Source: a virus (Duplodnaviria; Caudoviricetes). Taken from it: 64,000 nucleotides of DNA. The DNA lies in IMG/VR virus record IMGVR_UViG_3300032292_000618, positions 78,783 through 142,782 of that record; one strand, given 5' to 3'. Position numbers and translations under genes: made by a program. Below the pieces are notes generated by a model, which saw nothing but the letters and a program-made list of their open reading frames with translations, ran no database searches and had not been told where the DNA came from. Below, piece after piece: positions 2 through 44,504 of this stretch (its first letter is position 1; every line of letters starts with the position of its first letter).

Positions 2-529
2 TCAGACAGTGGATTGAACTTCATGGCACAAGTTGGGTATCGTGCTCCTCAATGGGGTGCTGCTGTTGCTTATCGTTATGGTACTGAAGGCAGTCGTGTT
101 CGTACCTTTAATGCCCTTGGTGGTGGATCTGGTGTCCTTGCTACTGGACAAGAAAGCAATAGCATTGCTGCTAATGCTTACTGGCAACCTTCCCAAAGTG
201 GATTCGTGCCTTCCATTTCAGTAGGTTATGGATACAATGATGTTGATGGTGCTGGTAAGAAAACTGGTGCTACTGATTCTGATTCCTGGTTCGTTGGACT
301 TCAGTGGTCTGATGTGTTTGTTCAAGGTAATGCTGCTGGCATTGCTGTGGGTCAACCTGGAAATTCTGATAACATCTCTGATGATGCTACGATGCTTGAA
401 GTTTTCTACAAGTATAAAGTTTCAGACAACATCAGCATCACTCCTGCTATCTTCTATGTAAGTAACAACCAAAGATTCCAAAATGAATCTGCTTGGGGTG
501 GTGTGGTTCAGACCAAGTTCACATTCTGA
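2..529 (+). CDS. Cyanobacterial-type outer-membrane porin (Som/OprB-like), 5'-truncated by the window edge
   Basis: Alternating beta-strand pattern; EVFYKYKVSDNISITPAIFY and terminal GVVQTKFTF with C-terminal Phe, typical of cyanobacterial porins; frame is open from base 2. Confidence 0.85.
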   Translation, partial: SDSGLNFMAQVGYRAPQWGAAVAYRYGTEGSRVRTFNALGGGSGVLATGQESNSIAANAYWQPSQSGFVPSISVGYGYNDVDGAGKKTGATDSDSWFVGLQWSDVFVQGNAAGIAVGQPGNSDNISDDATMLEVFYKYKVSDNISITPAIFYVSNNQRFQNESAWGGVVQTKFTF

Positions 530-626: not shown

Positions 627-878
627 ATGTTAAAAATAAGGTGCAAAAATTGTAATACAGAATTAATATCACATCCAATAAGAACTAAATGTTGTGGATG
701 TGAAAATATGTCTTCTATAACAGGAGAAACCATTACAGCAATTGACTTGACATTAGTTGAATTGTTGAGTAGTATAGACAAGAAGAATAAAGATTCTCTT
801 TTTTCAAAAGAAGATCTTGCTTTTCAGGAAGCAAGAAAAAAACGTAAAATCAAAAAATTGGAGTTTGAAATTAAATGA
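627..878 (+). CDS. Small Cys-rich (CxxC...CxC) hypothetical protein
   Basis: 83-aa ORF with CKNC and CCGC; late-promoter-like ATAAATA at 599-605. Confidence 0.7.
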   Translation: MLKIRCKNCNTELISHPIRTKCCGCENMSSITGETITAIDLTLVELLSSIDKKNKDSLFSKEDLAFQEARKKRKIKKLEFEIK

Positions 879-1030
879 GTTGGGAGTCCCCAAAGTTAGG
901 AAAAGGTGATGTTGAATTAATCACTCTTGCACTAGATGACTACATATATTATTCTAAGCAAGATGGAATGGACGTTCGAGAAGCAGAAAAAATGTTGCTT
1001 AGATTAAATGACCATTTACAAAAATTCTAA
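875..1030 (+). CDS. Hypothetical protein, 51 aa (MSWESPKLGK...)
   Basis: Hand translation; ATGA overlap with the upstream stop and TAATG coupling to the next ORF. Confidence 0.65.
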   Translation: MSWESPKLGKGDVELITLALDDYIYYSKQDGMDVREAEKMLLRLNDHLQKF

Positions 1031-1185
1031 TGGATCAACACACCTATGATAATTGGGTGAAAATAAAAGAAACATTTGAAAAATCTGGTAATACCAATAA
1101 TATGTTTTACAAAAGAGCATGTGCTATAATAAAAACTAAAATAGATCCTATGGATAAATTTTGGAGCAACAAAGAAAAAGCTTGA
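1030..1185 (+). CDS. Hypothetical protein, 51 aa (MDQHTYDNWVKIKETFE...)
   Basis: Hand translation; translationally coupled to the upstream ORF. Confidence 0.7.
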   Translation: MDQHTYDNWVKIKETFEKSGNTNNMFYKRACAIIKTKIDPMDKFWSNKEKA

Positions 1186-1210
1186 CCTAACCCCAAGTTT
1201 ATAGTATGAT
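1182..1210 (+). promoter_or_regulatory. Sigma70-type early promoter
   Basis: TTGACC-N17-TATGAT. Confidence 0.7.
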
Positions 1211-1231
1211 AACTAAATCAACTTCAACATT

Positions 1232-1423
1232 ATGGAACAATTTACTATTGAACACTTTCAACAAGATTTTGATAATTTGTTGAATAGAGTTGAAAATGGA
1301 GAATCATTTTTAATCACAAGTGAATATGGTAATGCTGTAATGACTCCTTATGTTGGAAAAAACCAACTAAGTCTAGTTGATGAATTTGTTAAGATCCACA
1401 CAGAACATGAAGATGGACCTTAA
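1232..1423 (+). CDS. Phd/YefM-like antitoxin-family protein (orphan)
   Basis: FTIEHFQQDFDNLLNRVENGESFLITSEYGNAVM matches the Phd/YefM N-terminal pattern; no toxin adjacent. Confidence 0.65.
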   Translation: MEQFTIEHFQQDFDNLLNRVENGESFLITSEYGNAVMTPYVGKNQLSLVDEFVKIHTEHEDGP

Positions 1424-1431
1424 CTTTTTTA

Positions 1432-1503
1432 GGGAGTATAGCTTAATGGTTAGAGCGGGCTCCTTATAAGGGCTTAGTCTGGGTTCAACTCCCAGTATTC
1501 CCA
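1432..1503 (+). tRNA. trnI: tRNA-Ile(UAU)
   Basis: Cloverleaf: acceptor GGGAGTA/TATTCCC, D-loop AATGGTTA, anticodon stem GGCTC/GGGCT with loop CT-TAT-AA (1465-1467), T-arm CTGGG-TTCAACT-CCCAG; no encoded CCA. Confidence 0.92.
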
Positions 1504-1525
1504 TTTGCTATTCGCAAATAGCAAA
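1504..1525. repeat. Perfect 9-bp inverted repeat directly 3' of tRNA-Ile
   Basis: TTTGCTATT-CGCA-AATAGCAAA. Confidence 0.85.
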
Positions 1526-1528
1526 TAT

Positions 1529-1725
1529 AGTCATGGAGAGACTTTAAAAACCCTGGTCGGGATGAACCCCCTTCAGTCATGGAGAGACTTTAAAAATCCT
1601 GGTGGAGTCAATATGACCCTCATTAGGTTTCCAATTTCCTCAAAAAATTGGTGGTGCGGATGGAGGTTACTCCCGCCTGGTTTCCAATTTCCAGTTAAAG
1701 AATTGGTGGCGTGCATGAAAGACCT
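1529..1725 (+). ncRNA. Structured RNA of four tandem H-type pseudoknot + UGGY + hairpin units; 3' half resembles the cyanophage wcaG RNA motif
   Basis: 29-nt direct repeats at 1529-1557 and 1575-1603; GGTTTCCAATTTCC at 1626-1639 and 1679-1692 with loop CCAATT complementary to downstream AATTGG; lies upstream of gmd/fcl, the context described for wcaG RNAs. Confidence 0.75.
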
Positions 1726-1729
1726 AATA

Positions 1730-1756
1730 GGAGAGTTGCATAAACTCTCCTTTTTT
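1730..1756 (+). terminator. Intrinsic terminator closing the tRNA/ncRNA unit
   Basis: GGAGAGTT-GCATA-AACTCTCC-TTTTTT. Confidence 0.85.
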
Positions 1757-1764
1757 AGTATAAT
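1736..1764 (+). promoter_or_regulatory. Sigma70-type promoter for the gmd operon, embedded in the terminator
   Basis: TTGCAT-N17-TATAAT. Confidence 0.65.
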
Positions 1765-1784: not shown

Positions 1785-2786
1785 ATGAAAGTAGCTTTAA
1801 TTACTGGTATCACTGGCCAAGATGGATCGTATCTTGCTGAATTATTACTCCAAAAAGGTTATGAAGTTCATGGCATTATTAGAAGGTCTTCCCTTATCAA
1901 TACGCATCGTATTGATCATGTATATGATTCAATTAATTTGCATTATGGGGACCTTACTGATGCTACGAACTTAGTTAGAGTTATTCAACAAGTTCAACCA
2001 GATGAAATCTATAACCTTGCTGCACAAAGTCATGTAAAGGTATCTTTTGAGATGCCTGAGTACACTGCTGATGTTGATGGTGTTGGCACACTAAGGATCC
2101 TAGAATCAGTTAGGTTGCTTGGTATGGAAGATAAAGTGAGAATCTATCAGGCATCTACATCTGAACTGTATGGACTTGTTCAGGAAATCCCTCAGAAAGA
2201 AACAACACCTTTTTATCCTAGGTCTCCTTATGGTGTTGCTAAGTTATATGCTTATTGGATCACAAAGAACTATAGAGAAGCGTATGACATGTATGCCTGT
2301 ACTGGCATCCTGTTCAATCACGAATCTCCTAGAAGAGGAGAAACATTTGTAACTAGAAAGATTGTTAGAGCACTATCTAAAATTTCTTGTGGTTTGCAAG
2401 ATACATTATATCTGGGCAACCTTAATGCCCAAAGAGATTGGGGTCATGCAAAAGATTATGTAGAAGCAATGTGGTTAATGCTCCAGCAAAAATATGCAGA
2501 TGATTATGTTATTGCAACAGGAGAACAATACTCAGTCAGAGAATTTGTAGATAAAGCAGCACCTTACTTTGGATTTAATATTGAATGGAAAGGTAAATAT
2601 ATGGATGAAGTTGGGATTGATACTAATACTGGAAAAGAGGTTATTAAAGTAGATCCTAAATATTTTAGACCTGCTGAAGTAGAGACTTTGTTAGGTGATG
2701 CCTCTAAGGCAAAAGTTGAATTAGGTTGGGAACCTAAGATTTCATTTGATCAATTAGTTGAGGATATGTGCATTTATGGACAGTAA
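1785..2786 (+). CDS. gmd: GDP-mannose 4,6-dehydratase
   Basis: [58 protein letters not shown]. Confidence 0.97.
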
Positions 2787-3744
2787 TTCTAAAGTATTGG
2801 TTGCCGGTGCCAATGGAATGGTTGGATCGGCAATTGTCAGAAATCTTGAGAGTAAAGGATATACTAATATCATGAAAGGAACTCGCCATATTGTAGATTT
2901 TACTGACCAAGAAGAAACTGATAGGTTTTTTCAGTTAGCAAAACCCGAGTATGTTTTTGTTGCCGCTGCTAAAGTTGGTGGCATTATGGCAAACAATAAC
3001 TATAAGGCAGATTTTCTAACTGAGAATCTTCGCATTCAAACTAATATTATTGAGTCTGCTAATCGTTGGAATGCAACTAAACTTCTGTTCCTTGGTTCCT
3101 CTTGCATCTATCCTAAGTTTGCTACTCAACCAATCAGAGAAGATCAGTTTATGACTGGTTCTTTGGAACCAACAAACGATGCCTATGCAATTGCCAAGAT
3201 ATCTGGTATTATGATGTGTCAGGCATATAGAGAACAGTATGGGTTCAATGCCATCTCACTGATGCCTACAAATCTTTATGGTACTAATGATAATTTTGAT
3301 TTGGAAACATCACATGTTCTTCCTGCAATGATTAGGAAGTTTCATGAAGCTGCTAGAAAGGGATATGTAATAGATCCAGGTGGTCCTTGGTATGGTCCAT
3401 CAGTAGAATTGTGGGGAGATGGATCTGCAAGGAGAGAGTTTCTTCATGTTGATGATCTTGCAGAAGCATGTTTCAGATGTATGATTTCATACGATGATTC
3501 TGAAATTATTAATGTAGGAACTGGTGAAGATCTTACTATTAAAGAACTTGCAGAATTAATTTCTATTATTGTTGATTATCCAGGTAAAATTGAATGGGAT
3601 ACTTCTAAACCTAATGGTACTCCTAGAAAAGTCTTGAATGTAGACAAAATCAAATCTCTTGGTTGGAGTCCTAAGATTGGGATTCGTCAAGGAATCTATG
3701 AAACTTATGAGTGGTACAAGAATGAGCAAACTAGTAATCTTTGA
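2776..3744 (+). CDS. fcl: GDP-L-fucose synthase (WcaG/Fcl)
   Basis: [54 protein letters not shown]; start set to the ATG of MDSNSK. Confidence 0.96.
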
Positions 3745-5089
3745 TTTAGATGGTGTTTTGATTGATAGCAAGGACTATCACTATGAAGCACTTAATCAGG
3801 CACTTGGAGACAAGTACTCTATTAGTAGAGAAGAGCATGTTAGCGTTTATGATGGTCTTCCAACCAGGGCAAAGTTAGAACTTCTTACTAAAAATAAAGG
3901 TTTGCCGGTAGATCTTTATGATCAGATTTGGCAAGACAAACAAGAGGCAACACTTAAGATCTTTAATGACTGTGTAGCAAAAGATTATGAGTTGATGGGA
4001 TACTTCCAACAACTTGTAGATGCTGGGTATAAGATTGCTGTTGCATCTAATTCTATTAGGAATACTGTTAAAATACTTTTATTAAGATTGGGAGTATTGG
4101 AGTTTGTAGACATGTATGTGTCTAATGAAGATGTAGTCAGGAACAAGCCATTCCCAGCAATGTATTGGAAGTGTATGACTGCTCTTGGTGCTCTTCCTGC
4201 AGATACTGTGATTGTTGAGGATAGTCATATTGGCAGACAGGGAGCATTAGATAGTAAGGCACATCTGGTTCCAGTAGAAAATAGAAAAGATCTTAATCAA
4301 GAAAAGATCAATAGAATTAAAAAGATTTTAAATGGCACAAAACAAAAAGTGGCATGGGAGAGTAAGACCATGAATGTTCTGATTCCTATGGCAGGAGCTG
4401 GTAGTAGATTTGCTAGTCAGGGATATACCTTCCCTAAACCTTTGATTGAAGTTAGAGGGAAACCAATGATTCAGGTAGTAGTTGAGAACCTGAATATTAA
4501 AGCAAACTATACTTTTATTGTTCAGAAAGAACACTATGAAAAATATAATTTAAATTATCTACTTCCCCTGATTGCTCCCAATTGTAATATTGTTCAAGTA
4601 GATGGAATCACTGAAGGTGCTGCTTGTACAACTCTTCTTGCTAAAGAGTTTATCAATAATGATGAACCTCTGGTGATGGCAAACTCAGACCAGTTTGTTG
4701 TATGGGATTCTAATGAAACTCTCTATGCATTTCAGAATGGTGAATGTGATGGAGGTATCCTGACATTCCCTGCAACTCACCCTAAATGGTCCTATGCTAA
4801 GCTTGGTGATGATGGGTATGTTGAAGAAGTTGCAGAGAAGAAACCAATCTCTGAACATGCTACTGTTGGTATCTACTACTGGAAGAAAGGTTCTGATTAT
4901 GTAAAGTATGCAGAACAAATGATTAAGAAAAACATTAGAGTTAATAATGAATTCTATGTCTGTCCAGTATTCAATGAGGCAATTTCCGATAGTAAAAAAA
5001 TCAGAATTAAAGAGATTGAAAAGGATGGGATGTGGGGTATTGGGACACCTGAAGATTTAAATTATTTCTTGGAGCACTACAAAGAATGA
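3722..5089 (+). CDS. HAD-family phosphatase fused to a sugar nucleotidyltransferase
   Basis: N-terminal [11 protein letters not shown]...KPFP...VEDS (HAD motifs); C-terminal LIPMAGAGSRF...PKPLI...EKK...GTPEDL (NTP transferase). Confidence 0.9.
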   Translation: MSKLVIFDLDGVLIDSKDYHYEALNQALGDKYSISREEHVSVYDGLPTRAKLELLTKNKGLPVDLYDQIWQDKQEATLKIFNDCVAKDYELMGYFQQLVDAGYKIAVASNSIRNTVKILLLRLGVLEFVDMYVSNEDVVRNKPFPAMYWKCMTALGALPADTVIVEDSHIGRQGALDSKAHLVPVENRKDLNQEKINRIKKILNGTKQKVAWESKTMNVLIPMAGAGSRFASQGYTFPKPLIEVRGKPMIQVVVENLNIKANYTFIVQKEHYEKYNLNYLLPLIAPNCNIVQVDGITEGAACTTLLAKEFINNDEPLVMANSDQFVVWDSNETLYAFQNGECDGGILTFPATHPKWSYAKLGDDGYVEEVAEKKPISEHATVGIYYWKKGSDYVKYAEQMIKKNIRVNNEFYVCPVFNEAISDSKKIRIKEIEKDGMWGIGTPEDLNYFLEHYKE

Positions 5090-44329: not shown

Positions 44330-44376
44330 ATTTTAGTGTGAAGGAAGTGCTGGAGAGGATTTTTCCTCTCCATTCT

Positions 44377-44459
44377 GGGAGCGTGGTGAAATTGGTAAAC
44401 ACACGACACTTAAAATGTCGCGGGCATTGCCCTTGTCGGTTCAATTCCGACCGTTCCTA
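44377..44459 (+). tRNA. trnL: tRNA-Leu(UAA)
   Basis: Acceptor GGGAGCG/CGTTCCT, anticodon arm CGACA-CTTAAAA-TGTCG, long variable arm GGGC-ATT-GCCC, T-arm GTCGG-TTCAATT-CCGAC; no intron. Confidence 0.94.
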
Positions 44460-44504
44460 TTGTGTAATATGGGTTATAAATAACTAATAGTTATCTGGAA
44501 CCTA

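What the first reader, a model, noticed from the sequence alone, without database searches (positions are those of the whole stretch)
1182..1756. Self-contained unit: orphan Phd-like antitoxin + tRNA-Ile(UAU) + pseudoknot RNA array, a candidate anti-defence cassette
Seen: one sigma70 promoter (1182-1210) and one intrinsic terminator (1730-1756) bracket a Phd/YefM-like ORF with no toxin, a tRNA, a perfect hairpin and four pseudoknot units; gmd has its own promoter downstream. Established: type III toxin-antitoxin antitoxins (ToxI, antiQ, CptI) are tandem H-type pseudoknot repeats ending in a terminator, phages can escape ToxIN with pseudo-ToxI repeats, and phage tRNAs and antitoxin mimics can offset host ribonuclease toxins. 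Inference: all three products may neutralise host TA/Abi nucleases, so the RNA would act in trans rather than as a gmd riboswitch.
Basis: partly seen in the sequence, partly recalled or inferred. Interest (0 to 1): 0.85.

Follow-up and report, generated by a model that had tools for sequence, protein, structure and literature searches.

The report
Known wcaG RNA inside tRNA operon
The "pseudoknot array" is the already catalogued cyanophage wcaG RNA, here four modules long. It sits at the tail of a small transcription unit (Phd-like protein, tRNA-Ile, RNA) that recurs in ocean cyanophages, its job is still unknown, and nothing found here shows that the unit is an anti-defence cassette.

Summary
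All the described features are present. Units 3-4 (1623-1720) are one copy of Rfam wcaG RNA (RF01761, 94 bits against a cut-off of 42). Units 1-2 (1529-1622) are two further modules of the same building block: a small H-type pseudoknot, then UGGY, then a tail hairpin. The window is a 34% GC T4-like cyanophage.

Across IMG/VR cyanophage contigs:
- **Phd-like ORF and tRNA.** This is the tightly conserved pair. A tRNA starts within 60 nt of the stop codon in 51 of 63 loci, and it is usually Ile(UAU).
- **RNA array.** It is facultative (13 of 55 Phd-sampled loci). In most relatives it starts 0-1 nt after a tRNA 3' end. It ends at a terminator (55 of 87) or runs into more tRNAs (21 of 87).
- **Terminator.** Its loop and T-run carry a conserved promoter for gmd, like the PeSL terminator/promoter composites of T4-like phages.

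I found no antiterminator complementarity, no toxin gene and no ToxI-like match, and no true match to the wcaG core in a cyanobacterial genome. The simple gmd-riboswitch reading is weakened. The type III antitoxin-mimic reading fails its defining features. The anti-defence idea is untested.

My best reading is a processed trailer RNA of the tRNA operon. Earlier notes of this scan describe the same RNA family on other DNA.

The parts
1182..1210 (+). sigma70-type promoter-like site (TTGACC-17-TATGAT) in front of the Phd-like ORF; it overlaps the stop codon of the upstream 51-aa ORF
   Evidence: 10 of 12 matches. An equivalent site is conserved before the homologous ORF in several relatives. No terminator lies between the upstream ORFs 627-1185 and this site, so read-in from upstream is possible.
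1232..1423 (+). 63-aa orphan Phd/YefM-fold protein with a conserved C-terminal motif (I-H/Y-T-x-H-E/D-E-G/A-S/C in relatives)
   Evidence: No cognate toxin family in the record.
1432..1503 (+). tRNA-Ile, anticodon UAU, no encoded CCA; starts 8 nt after the ORF's stop codon
   Evidence: 65.3 bits. It is the first tRNA after the Phd-like ORF in 44 of the 56 loci that have a tRNA within 300 nt of the stop (63 loci sampled).
1503..1526 (+). perfect 10-bp A+U-rich hairpin between the tRNA and the first module; a lineage-specific insert
   Evidence: Present only in the window, L142 and L135. In 14 of 17 distinct junctions the first module follows the tRNA directly.
1529..1574 (+). module 1: mini H-type pseudoknot (S1 AGUC/GACU, loop GG pairing with CC before UGGU, A-rich linker), then UGGU, then tail hairpin CGGG..CCC
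   Evidence: S1 covaries (GUC/GAC, GUG/CAC, GAC/GUC, AUC/GAU). Not matched by any Rfam model.
1575..1622 (+). module 2: the same pseudoknot, then UGGU, then tail hairpin GG-A-GUCA..UGAC-CC
   Evidence: This module lies 72-78 nt before the wcaG core in most of the >=119 viral contigs that carry it.
1623..1720 (+). modules 3 and 4 = one Rfam wcaG RNA (RF01761). Each module has a 6-bp stem whose loop pairs with the 3-4 nt in front of GUUUC (AGG/CCU and CUGG/CCAG), followed by UGGUG / UGGCG
   Evidence: 94.1 bits, cut-off 42. Stems and the CUGG/CCAG pseudoknot covary, 99-100% paired.
1729..1756 (+). intrinsic terminator (9-bp stem, T6) that ends the unit
   Evidence: Five pairs have compensatory changes in relatives. 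A terminator follows 55 of 87 non-redundant arrays.
1736..1764 (+). promoter for gmd embedded in the terminator: -35-like TTGCAT in the loop, 17 nt, TATAAT after the T-run (a PeSL-like composite)
   Evidence: GTATAAT nearly invariant; loop TTGCAT, TTGACA or TTTACA. A -10 box follows the T-run in 18 of 21 arrays that precede SDR sugar genes. The PeSL class is described in PMC4122927.
1785..3744 (+). context: gmd (1785-2786) and GDP-fucose synthase fcl/wcaG (2776-3744)
   Evidence: GDP_Man_Dehyd 3.3e-156; Epimerase 6.8e-61.

Best explanation
The locus is a small early-type transcription unit of a T4-like cyanomyovirus, built around its tRNA genes. The order is: sigma70-type promoter, orphan Phd/YefM-fold protein, tRNA-Ile(UAU), a four-module RNA of the wcaG family, and an intrinsic terminator whose loop and T-run carry the promoter of gmd-fcl.

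Shown here:
- Units 3-4 are the catalogued wcaG RNA.
- Units 1-2 are two more copies of its building block (small H-type pseudoknot, single-stranded UGGY, tail hairpin).
- The array is part of the tRNA transcript. In most relatives it begins 0-1 nt after the tRNA discriminator base.

Inferred: tRNA 3' processing and the terminator would release the array as a discrete structured RNA of about 225-250 nt. It would act on its own or as a processing/stability element of tRNA-containing transcripts, probably through its repeated UGGY sites binding a protein or RNA partner. It would not act as a ligand-controlled read-through switch for gmd. tRNA-Ile(UAU) supplies the phage's frequent AUA codon. The Phd-like protein is a conserved companion of the tRNA genes and its target is unknown.
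For: - Identity: Rfam wcaG at 94.1 bits. The same module types occur upstream of the wcaG core in DSL-LC03, S-CREM1, S-RIM4 and S-MS29 and in >=119 IMG/VR contigs. Weinberg's own seed alignment already holds the GUC-NNGGNNN-GAC hairpin as a P1 variant.
- Structure: 95.3% of cells paired and 23 covarying pairs, against 3-5 in slid controls. Covariation of S1 and of the loop pseudoknot across 174 module variants, for example GCAGG/CCUGC against GUUGG/CCAAC.
- tRNA-operon context: the first module abuts the tRNA 3' end in 14 of 17 distinct junctions. 21 of 87 non-redundant arrays are followed by a tRNA, 18 of them with no terminator between. In S-CREM1 the array lies among tRNAs together with manA and abiF RNAs.
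- Against a simple switch: every array before an SDR sugar gene has a terminator, and 18 of 21 have a -10 box right after the T-run. Terminator arms show no excess complementarity to the last 70 nt of the array (mean z -0.55 and +0.24).
- Phd-tRNA pair: 51 of 63 loci have a tRNA within 60 nt of the stop codon.
- Codon supply: AUA is 25% of Ile codons. The record's three tRNAs read GGA, AUA and UUA.
- Weinberg 2010 noted that the duplicated UGGYG could be a site for a dimeric protein.
Against: - No expression or processing data could be obtained, so the discrete RNA product is inferred.
- About 31 of the 87 non-redundant arrays are followed by nucleotide-sugar or glycan genes of at least six protein families: SDR, mannose-6-P isomerase, GT11, Nucleotid_trans, NTP_transferase and cytidylyltransferase. 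That fits the published cis-regulatory reading. It can only be explained away by position, if the glycan island lies next to the tRNA cluster.
- In some relatives a module ends 2-3 nt before an ORF's start codon, which looks cis-acting.
- The antiterminator test is crude.
- No partner for the UGGY sites has been identified.
Confidence: 0.5

Rival explanations
1. The published reading: the wcaG RNA is a cis-acting riboswitch or attenuator. It senses a metabolite or protein and sets how much transcription passes the 1729-1756 terminator into gmd-fcl. The extra modules add cooperativity.
For: - Rfam and Weinberg 2010 class wcaG as cis-regulatory and a probable riboswitch.
- Strong enrichment of nucleotide-sugar and glycan genes directly downstream (21 SDR, 4 mannose-6-P isomerase, 4 GT11 and others among 87 arrays).
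- An intrinsic terminator always lies between the RNA and these genes.
- The RNA and the downstream gene are on the same strand here and in every relative examined.
Against: - A conserved -10 box (TGTATAAT in relatives) directly after the T-run gives gmd its own start.
- No conserved complementarity between the array and the terminator arms. The spacer between them varies from 8 to 21 nt and is not conserved.
- 24% of arrays are followed by tRNAs, not mRNAs.
- Arrays begin at tRNA 3' ends.
- No ligand has been reported in the papers searched since 2010.
Confidence: 0.25
2. One reading: the three products form an anti-defence cassette. The Phd-like protein neutralises a host type II toxin, the tRNA replaces a cleaved host tRNA, and the pseudoknot array acts as a pseudo-antitoxin of a host type III (ToxN-like) or Abi nuclease.
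For: - The orphan Phd/YefM fold is real and no toxin gene is in the record.
- The Phd-like ORF and tRNA-Ile(UAU) are a tightly conserved pair.
- One of the closest solved relatives, VapB46, partners a VapC-family toxin (that VapC toxins are PIN-domain RNases and some cut tRNAs is from my own knowledge).
- Orphan antitoxin genes in cyanophages have been proposed as counter-defence (PMC9964418).
- S-CREM1 carries an abiF RNA in the same tRNA cluster.
- The modules are pseudoknots with A-rich linkers.
Against: - Type III features are not met. The repeats are heterogeneous in relatives, the next gene is gmd, and there is no ToxI/CptI-type Rfam match at E <= 10.
- The wcaG core pattern had only 3 true hits in the genome collection (one genome per species, 185,579 species), all on small contigs of non-cyanobacterial MAGs. 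No host RNA to mimic was found.
- The RNA is missing from 42 of 55 Phd-sampled loci.
- The tRNA is explained by AUA usage.
- The window's protein is short. The model shows a low-confidence C-terminal helix, and no toxin-binding region was identified.
Confidence: 0.08
3. The modules have no RNA-level function. They are recombination-prone intergenic 'punctuation' that travels with PeSL-like terminator/promoter cassettes in a hyperplastic region.
For: - The modules shuffle freely: tails and 5' parts combine in many orders, and small ORFs are inserted between modules.
- The terminator/promoter composite resembles the PeSLs implicated in modular shuffling (PMC4122927).
Against: Compensatory base changes in stems and pseudoknots across many lineages show selection on RNA structure, not only on DNA.
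Confidence: 0.05

Closest known systems
wcaG RNA motif (Rfam RF01761; Weinberg et al. 2010, PMC2864571)
   Same: 1623-1720 matches the model end to end at 94 bits. It is in a T4-like cyanophage and directly upstream of gmd and wcaG/fcl. It carries the two conserved UGGYG motifs.
   Different: - The natural RNA here is about twice as long: four modules, not two.
- It starts just after a tRNA.
- It is separated from gmd by a terminator that carries a promoter.
- The pseudoknot pairings (flank with hairpin loop) are not part of the Rfam structure line shown.
PeSL composite terminator/promoter elements of T4-like phages (Arbiol 2010, PMC2839356; Comeau 2014, PMC4122927)
   Same: A stem-loop terminator fused to an early-type promoter, sitting between cassettes of accessory genes in a variable region.
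   Different: PeSLs were described in coliphage, Vibrio and other T4-like phages. Here the -35 lies in the hairpin loop and the -10 after the T-run. I did not test activity or a role in recombination.
Phd/YefM type II antitoxins (Pfam PF02604; P1 Phd, E. coli YefM, M. tuberculosis VapB46)
   Same: The N-terminal beta-alpha-alpha-beta-beta domain (rmsd 1.0 A over 39 columns to the P1 Phd DNA-binding domain). PHROG 375 'Phd-like antitoxin'.
   Different: - No toxin partner gene.
- 63 aa only.
- A distinct conserved C-terminal motif.
- It is embedded among tRNA genes.
- The window's protein scores below the Pfam cut-off.
Type III antitoxin RNAs (ToxI, CptI, TenpI)
   Same: Tandem short pseudoknot-forming units with A-rich single strands, ending at a terminator.
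   Different: - The units are not near-identical repeats.
- No toxin gene follows.
- No sequence or CM similarity.
- No host counterpart found.
The likeness is one of form only.
Small stable RNAs of the phage T4 tRNA cluster (species 1 and 2, rnaC/rnaD). From my own knowledge, not checked here.
   Same: Structured RNAs of unknown function, co-transcribed with phage tRNAs and cut out by tRNA processing.
   Different: No sequence relation was tested. This is an analogy of context only.

Membership tests
wcaG RNA (RF01761) | Covariance-model score at or above the gathering threshold of 42 bits | tested here: met
   94.1 bits, model positions 1-98 of 98, window 1623-1720.
wcaG RNA (RF01761) | Three hairpins with two conserved UGGYG motifs | tested here: met
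   Alignment to the consensus. The two module stems (helices 8 and 12) covary and are 99-100% paired; the middle hairpin's base never varies.
wcaG RNA (RF01761) | Occurs in T4-like cyanophages or marine metagenomes, upstream of exopolysaccharide or high-light genes | tested here: met
   Kyanoviridae relatives. gmd and fcl lie downstream.
wcaG RNA as a riboswitch | Ligand-dependent alternative pairing with the expression platform | tested here: inconclusive
   No excess complementarity between the terminator arms and the array in 22 sequences. This is a crude test, and no ligand is known.
Type III toxin-antitoxin antitoxin RNA | Tandem near-identical direct repeats of about 34-45 nt | tested here: not met
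   Only the 29-nt 5' parts of units 1 and 2 are alike (97%). In relatives unit 1 differs from unit 2. Units 3 and 4 share 14-21 nt.
Type III toxin-antitoxin antitoxin RNA | Endoribonuclease toxin gene (ToxN, AbiQ, CptN or TenpN) immediately downstream of the terminator | tested here: not met
   The downstream gene is GDP-mannose 4,6-dehydratase, E = 3.3e-156.
Type III toxin-antitoxin antitoxin RNA | Similarity to a host antitoxin RNA (needed for a pseudo-antitoxin) | tested here: not met
   No Rfam antitoxin family at E <= 10. The wcaG core pattern has 3 true hits in the genome collection (185,579 species), none in a cyanobacterial genome. This was an exact-pattern search only.
Phd/YefM antitoxin (PF02604) | Pfam score at or above the gathering threshold | tested here: not met
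   17.2 bits against 29.8 for the window's protein. However, 28 of 33 relatives match at E <= 0.01, best 3.6e-9, and PHROG 375 gives E = 2.4e-11.
Phd/YefM antitoxin (PF02604) | Phd/YefM N-terminal fold | tested here: met
   AlphaFold pLDDT is 91-96 over residues 1-40. The top PDB matches are Phd, VapB46 and YefM, TM 0.56-0.63. Foldseek E-values are only 4e-3 to 1e-2.
Phd/YefM antitoxin (PF02604) | Adjacent cognate toxin gene (Doc, YoeB, VapC or ParE) | tested here: not met
   The neighbours are a tRNA and small ORFs with no family match. No YoeB, Fic, PIN or ParE in the record.
Phd/YefM antitoxin (PF02604) | Binds and neutralises a toxin | not testable with these tools
   No candidate host toxin was available, and complex prediction was not used.
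PeSL composite terminator/promoter | Stem-loop terminator combined with an early sigma70-type promoter between accessory genes | tested here: met
   Terminator 1729-1756 with TTGCAT-17-TATAAT across it, conserved in 21 of 22 relatives. 37 of 87 arrays have a terminator followed by a -10 box. This is sequence evidence only.

The most novel reading that the evidence does not exclude
wcaG-family arrays are not riboswitches. They are trailer RNAs of phage tRNA operons whose single-stranded UGGY-plus-tail segments base-pair with the mature RCCA 3' ends of particular tRNAs. The phage RNA would then capture, shield or sense specific tRNAs during infection, and the conserved Phd-like protein would belong to the same tRNA-centred module.

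Partial test here, against phage-encoded tRNAs only:
- The UGGU-CGGGAUG tail is the exact antisense of the 3' end of cyanophage tRNA-Pro(UGG).
- The UGGU-GCGGAUG tail differs from the antisense of tRNA-Gly(UCC) only at the discriminator position.
- The other two common tails (GGAGUCA and CGWGCMUG) match no phage tRNA.
- None of the window's tails matches the record's own three tRNAs beyond UGGUGG.
- Host tRNAs could not be searched.
Probability: 0.15. Interest if true: 0.8.

Novelty: new variant of a known kind. Interest (0 to 1): 0.5.

Why it matters
wcaG has been listed since 2010 as an orphan riboswitch candidate for exopolysaccharide genes. Three things about this locus and its relatives say the cis-riboswitch label may be wrong or incomplete:
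- The catalogued 98-nt motif is only part of a longer modular pseudoknot RNA.
- That RNA is physically part of tRNA transcripts.
- It is cut off from the sugar genes by a terminator that carries their promoter.

This tells experimenters where to look: processing by RNase Z or RNase P, and partners of the UGGY sites.

The tight pairing of an orphan Phd-fold protein with tRNA-Ile(UAU) across cyanomyoviruses is a separate regularity that I did not see described in the papers I searched. It may bear on phage counter-defence or on tRNA biology.

Tried and rejected
- **Rfam on 1529-1622:** a permissive search (E <= 10) found nothing but noise.
- **MFE folding of 1504-1625:** uninformative (z = -0.95), because pseudoknots are not modelled.
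- **14-mer scan CCTGGTCGGGATGG:** too unspecific, giving many unrelated contigs, so I replaced it with a longer pattern.
- **The search for related loci with the broad Phd alignment:** failed because no conserved stretch was available. It was redone with a closer subset.
- **Host tRNA test:** The route through Gmd homologues led only to a metagenome assembly. Complementarity of the tails to host tRNA 3' ends therefore stays untested.
- **GGAGAG and the terminator:** in the window, GGAGAG in the module loops could pair with CUCUCC of the terminator. This is not conserved in relatives, so I rejected it as an antiterminator.
- **CsrA-type GGA-loop decoy:** considered and dropped. The loop GG is used in the pseudoknot, and modules 3-4 have no GGA loop.
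- **The 90-aa TTG ORF 1505-1777 across the array:** treated as spurious. Relatives differ by 1-, 2- and 4-nt indels and show RNA-type covariation.
Full report
**What the window is.** The window is the last 64 kb of a 142,782-nt IMG/VR virus record with 33.9% G+C and three tRNA genes: Gly-UCC, Ile-UAU and Leu-UAA. The region around the finding matches only Synechococcus and cyanophage records of the family Kyanoviridae. All 107 records that hit 1150-1800 are cyanophages. The genes after the finding are GDP-mannose 4,6-dehydratase (1785-2786, Pfam 3.3e-156) and a GDP-fucose synthase-type epimerase (2776-3744).

**Check of the observation.** All the features exist.
- The promoter-like site TTGACC-17-TATGAT lies at 1182-1210. 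On its own it is not above chance (15 sites found, 10.1 +/- 3.0 expected). An equivalent site stands before the homologous ORF in several relatives.
- The 63-aa ORF 1232-1423 scores below the Pfam cut-off for PhdYeFM (17.2 against 29.8 bits). It matches PHROG 375 'Phd-like antitoxin' at 2.4e-11. 28 of 33 relatives hit PF02604.
- An AlphaFold model (pLDDT 91-96 over residues 1-40) finds Phd, VapB46 and YefM as its best PDB matches.
- No YoeB, Fic/Doc, PIN or ParE gene is in the record.
- tRNA-Ile(UAU) is at 1432-1503. The perfect hairpin is at 1503-1526. The terminator is at 1729-1751 plus a T-run.

**Identity of the RNA.** Units 3 and 4 are one full-length copy of Rfam wcaG RNA (RF01761; 1623-1720; 94.1 bits, cut-off 42). 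This motif was described in 2010 from marine metagenomes and T4-like cyanophages, and was proposed to regulate exopolysaccharide and high-light genes (PMC2864571).

Units 1 and 2 (1529-1622) hit no Rfam family, even at E <= 10. They are still conserved directly 5' of the wcaG RNA in DSL-LC03, S-CREM1, S-RIM4 and S-MS29. Their signature occurs in at least 119 IMG/VR contigs, mostly 72-78 nt (one unit) or about 123 nt (two units) before the wcaG core. In about 16 loci the unit's 5' part is fused directly to the wcaG tail GCGGAUGG. Weinberg's seed alignment already aligns such hairpins as variants of P1. Units 1-2 are therefore further modules of the same family, not a new RNA.

**Structure.** Each module is a small H-type pseudoknot followed by UGGY and a tail hairpin.
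- In modules 3-4, the 3-4 nt before GUUUC pair with the loop of the 6-bp hairpin (AGG/CCU and CUGG/CCAG).
- In modules 1-2, a 4-bp stem (AGUC/GACU) closes a 7-nt loop. The loop's GG pairs with the CC before UGGU, across an A-rich linker.
- On 22 related arrays the full proposal is 95.3% paired, with 23 pairs showing compensatory changes, against 3-5 for slid controls. Both long stems, the CUGG/CCAG pseudoknot and the terminator covary.
- Across 174 module variants the short stem covaries (GUC/GAC, GUG/CAC, GAC/GUC, AUC/GAU, CCC/GGG). So does the loop pseudoknot (GCAGG/CCUGC against GUUGG/CCAAC; GGUUA/UGA-G-CC; GGACA/UGU-G-CC).

**Linkage of the parts.**
- I clustered arrays at 93% identity, giving 95 clusters. 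34 of the 85 with enough flank have a Phd-like ORF within 1.5 kb upstream, more than for any other neighbouring ORF. This holds with gmd downstream (11 loci) and without it (20 loci).
- The reverse test is weaker. Of 55 distinct loci sampled by the Phd-like protein, only 13 have wcaG-type modules within 1.5 kb. Twenty of the negatives were checked with Rfam and have no wcaG, but they do have tRNAs straight after the ORF.
- The robust pair is the Phd-like ORF plus a tRNA. A tRNA starts within 60 nt of the stop codon in 51 of 63 loci. It is Ile(UAU) in 44 and Met/Ile-type CAU in 12.
- In many relatives the ORF is itself preceded by a tRNA with a Pro-type (UGG) anticodon, so it sits inside the tRNA cluster.
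- The array is a facultative 3' part of that cluster. In 14 of 17 distinct junctions its first module starts 0-1 nt after the tRNA. The window, L142 and L135 have the extra hairpin.

**What follows the array.**
- Of 87 non-redundant arrays, 21 run into tRNAs, 18 of them without a terminator.
- 55 of the 87 are followed by a hairpin plus T-run, and 37 of these have a -10 box directly after the T-run.
- All 21 arrays before SDR nucleotide-sugar enzymes have the terminator, and 18 have the -10 box. The same holds for GT11, nucleotide-sugar transferase, NTP-transferase and cytidylyltransferase genes.
- In the window the terminator loop holds TTGCAT (1736-1741), 17 nt before TATAAT (1759-1764). Relatives have TTGACA or TTTACA, and TGTATAAT.
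- This is the composite terminator/promoter type described as PeSL in T4-like phages (PMC4122927).
- Terminator arms show no excess complementarity to the last 70 nt of the array, and the spacer is variable.

**Host side.** An exact-pattern scan for the wcaG core, over one genome for each of 185,579 prokaryote species, gave 23 hits. Only three are real. All three lie on small contigs of non-cyanobacterial MAGs, and one is almost identical to S-CREM1. On this exact-pattern test the RNA looks phage-restricted.

**Reading.**
- The identity is settled: wcaG family, four modules, in a tRNA operon.
- For function I favour a processed, discrete trailer RNA of the tRNA transcript that acts through its repeated UGGY sites (about 0.5). 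Weinberg's supplement already remarked that the duplicated UGGYG could bind a dimeric protein.
- The classical riboswitch reading keeps about 0.25, because of the striking enrichment of glycan genes downstream.
- The anti-defence cassette as a whole gets about 0.08. The type III features were tested and not met. The tRNA is explained by codon supply (AUA 25% of Ile codons, 18 per 1000; GGA 54% of Gly; UUA 36% of Leu). Nothing links the RNA to a nuclease. An anti-toxin role for the orphan Phd-like protein alone remains plausible and has been proposed for cyanophage antitoxin genes (PMC9964418).

**tRNA 3'-end lead.** Earlier notes of this scan report the same family on other DNA, including the idea that UGGY tails pair with tRNA 3' ends. 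I reached the same idea independently and tested it only against phage-encoded tRNAs.
- The tail UGGU-CGGGAUG is the exact antisense of cyanophage tRNA-Pro(UGG) 3' ends.
- UGGU-GCGGAUG is one mismatch (at the discriminator) from tRNA-Gly(UCC).
- The GGAGUCA and CGWGCMUG tails match no phage tRNA.
- The window's own three tRNAs do not match.
- Host tRNAs could not be reached.
- The same data fit an origin of the tails from tRNA acceptor arms.

This stays a lead.

**Limits.** I have no expression data. Module detection in the linkage counts used sequence signatures, backed by Rfam on only 20 loci. IMG/VR contigs are fragments. The antiterminator test is crude.

Noticed in passing
window 2-529 and 541-580: The 3' part of an OprB-type porin gene (Pfam PF04966, E = 2e-7), followed by a strong terminator (ACCACCC..GGGTGG plus T7). 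Relatives carry a 'Phage_OMP' beta-barrel gene downstream of some arrays.
   Followed up: partly
window 627-1185: Three small overlapping ORFs (83, 51 and 51 aa; ATGA overlaps) lie directly upstream of the unit with no terminator before 1182. The first is PHROG 8074 (E = 9e-24). All three are syntenic in the closest relatives. The unit may therefore also be transcribed from further upstream.
   Followed up: partly
window 3659-5089: A 476-aa ORF after fcl, with 74-76% DNA identity to genes annotated 'nucleoside-diphosphate-sugar pyrophosphorylase' or 'HAD-superfamily hydrolase' in S-CAM9, S-8S53 and S-8S55. It is part of a phage glycan-precursor island.
   Followed up: no
L138, L140, L147, L127, L133, L157, L168 (IMG/VR relatives): Small ORFs are inserted between modules of an array. 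One is a roughly 69-aa 'MTPYELRFEIFKQA...' protein. The other looks like a small membrane protein whose ATG lies 2-3 nt after a module's tail hairpin (..CCCCUUAUG). This suggests modules can also sit at mRNA 5' ends.
   Followed up: partly
L002 (S-CREM1) 1609-2431: wcaG, manA and abiF RNAs all lie within one tRNA cluster, between tRNA-Arg, Met, Leu, Asn and Gly. Cyanophage tRNA clusters seem to collect structured RNAs.
   Followed up: no
L293 771-970: A group I intron match (RF00028, 60.8 bits) next to tRNAs, downstream of a Phd-like ORF in an IMG/VR contig.
   Followed up: no
genome 77666-77806 (about 1 kb before the window) and window 44346-44460: tRNA-Gly(UCC) is preceded by a hairpin with TATAAT in its loop (GGGAGTTATAATACTCCC) and followed by a terminator. 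tRNA-Leu(UAA) is preceded by the hairpin GGAGAGGATTTTTCCTCTCC. Neither has a wcaG-type module next to it.
   Followed up: partly
Phd-like family alignment A2: The family has a conserved C-terminal motif (..L-I-R-I-Y/H-T-D/E-H-E/D-E-G/A-S/C) after a variable linker. AlphaFold predicts a low-confidence helix there. It could be the partner-binding part.
   Followed up: partly
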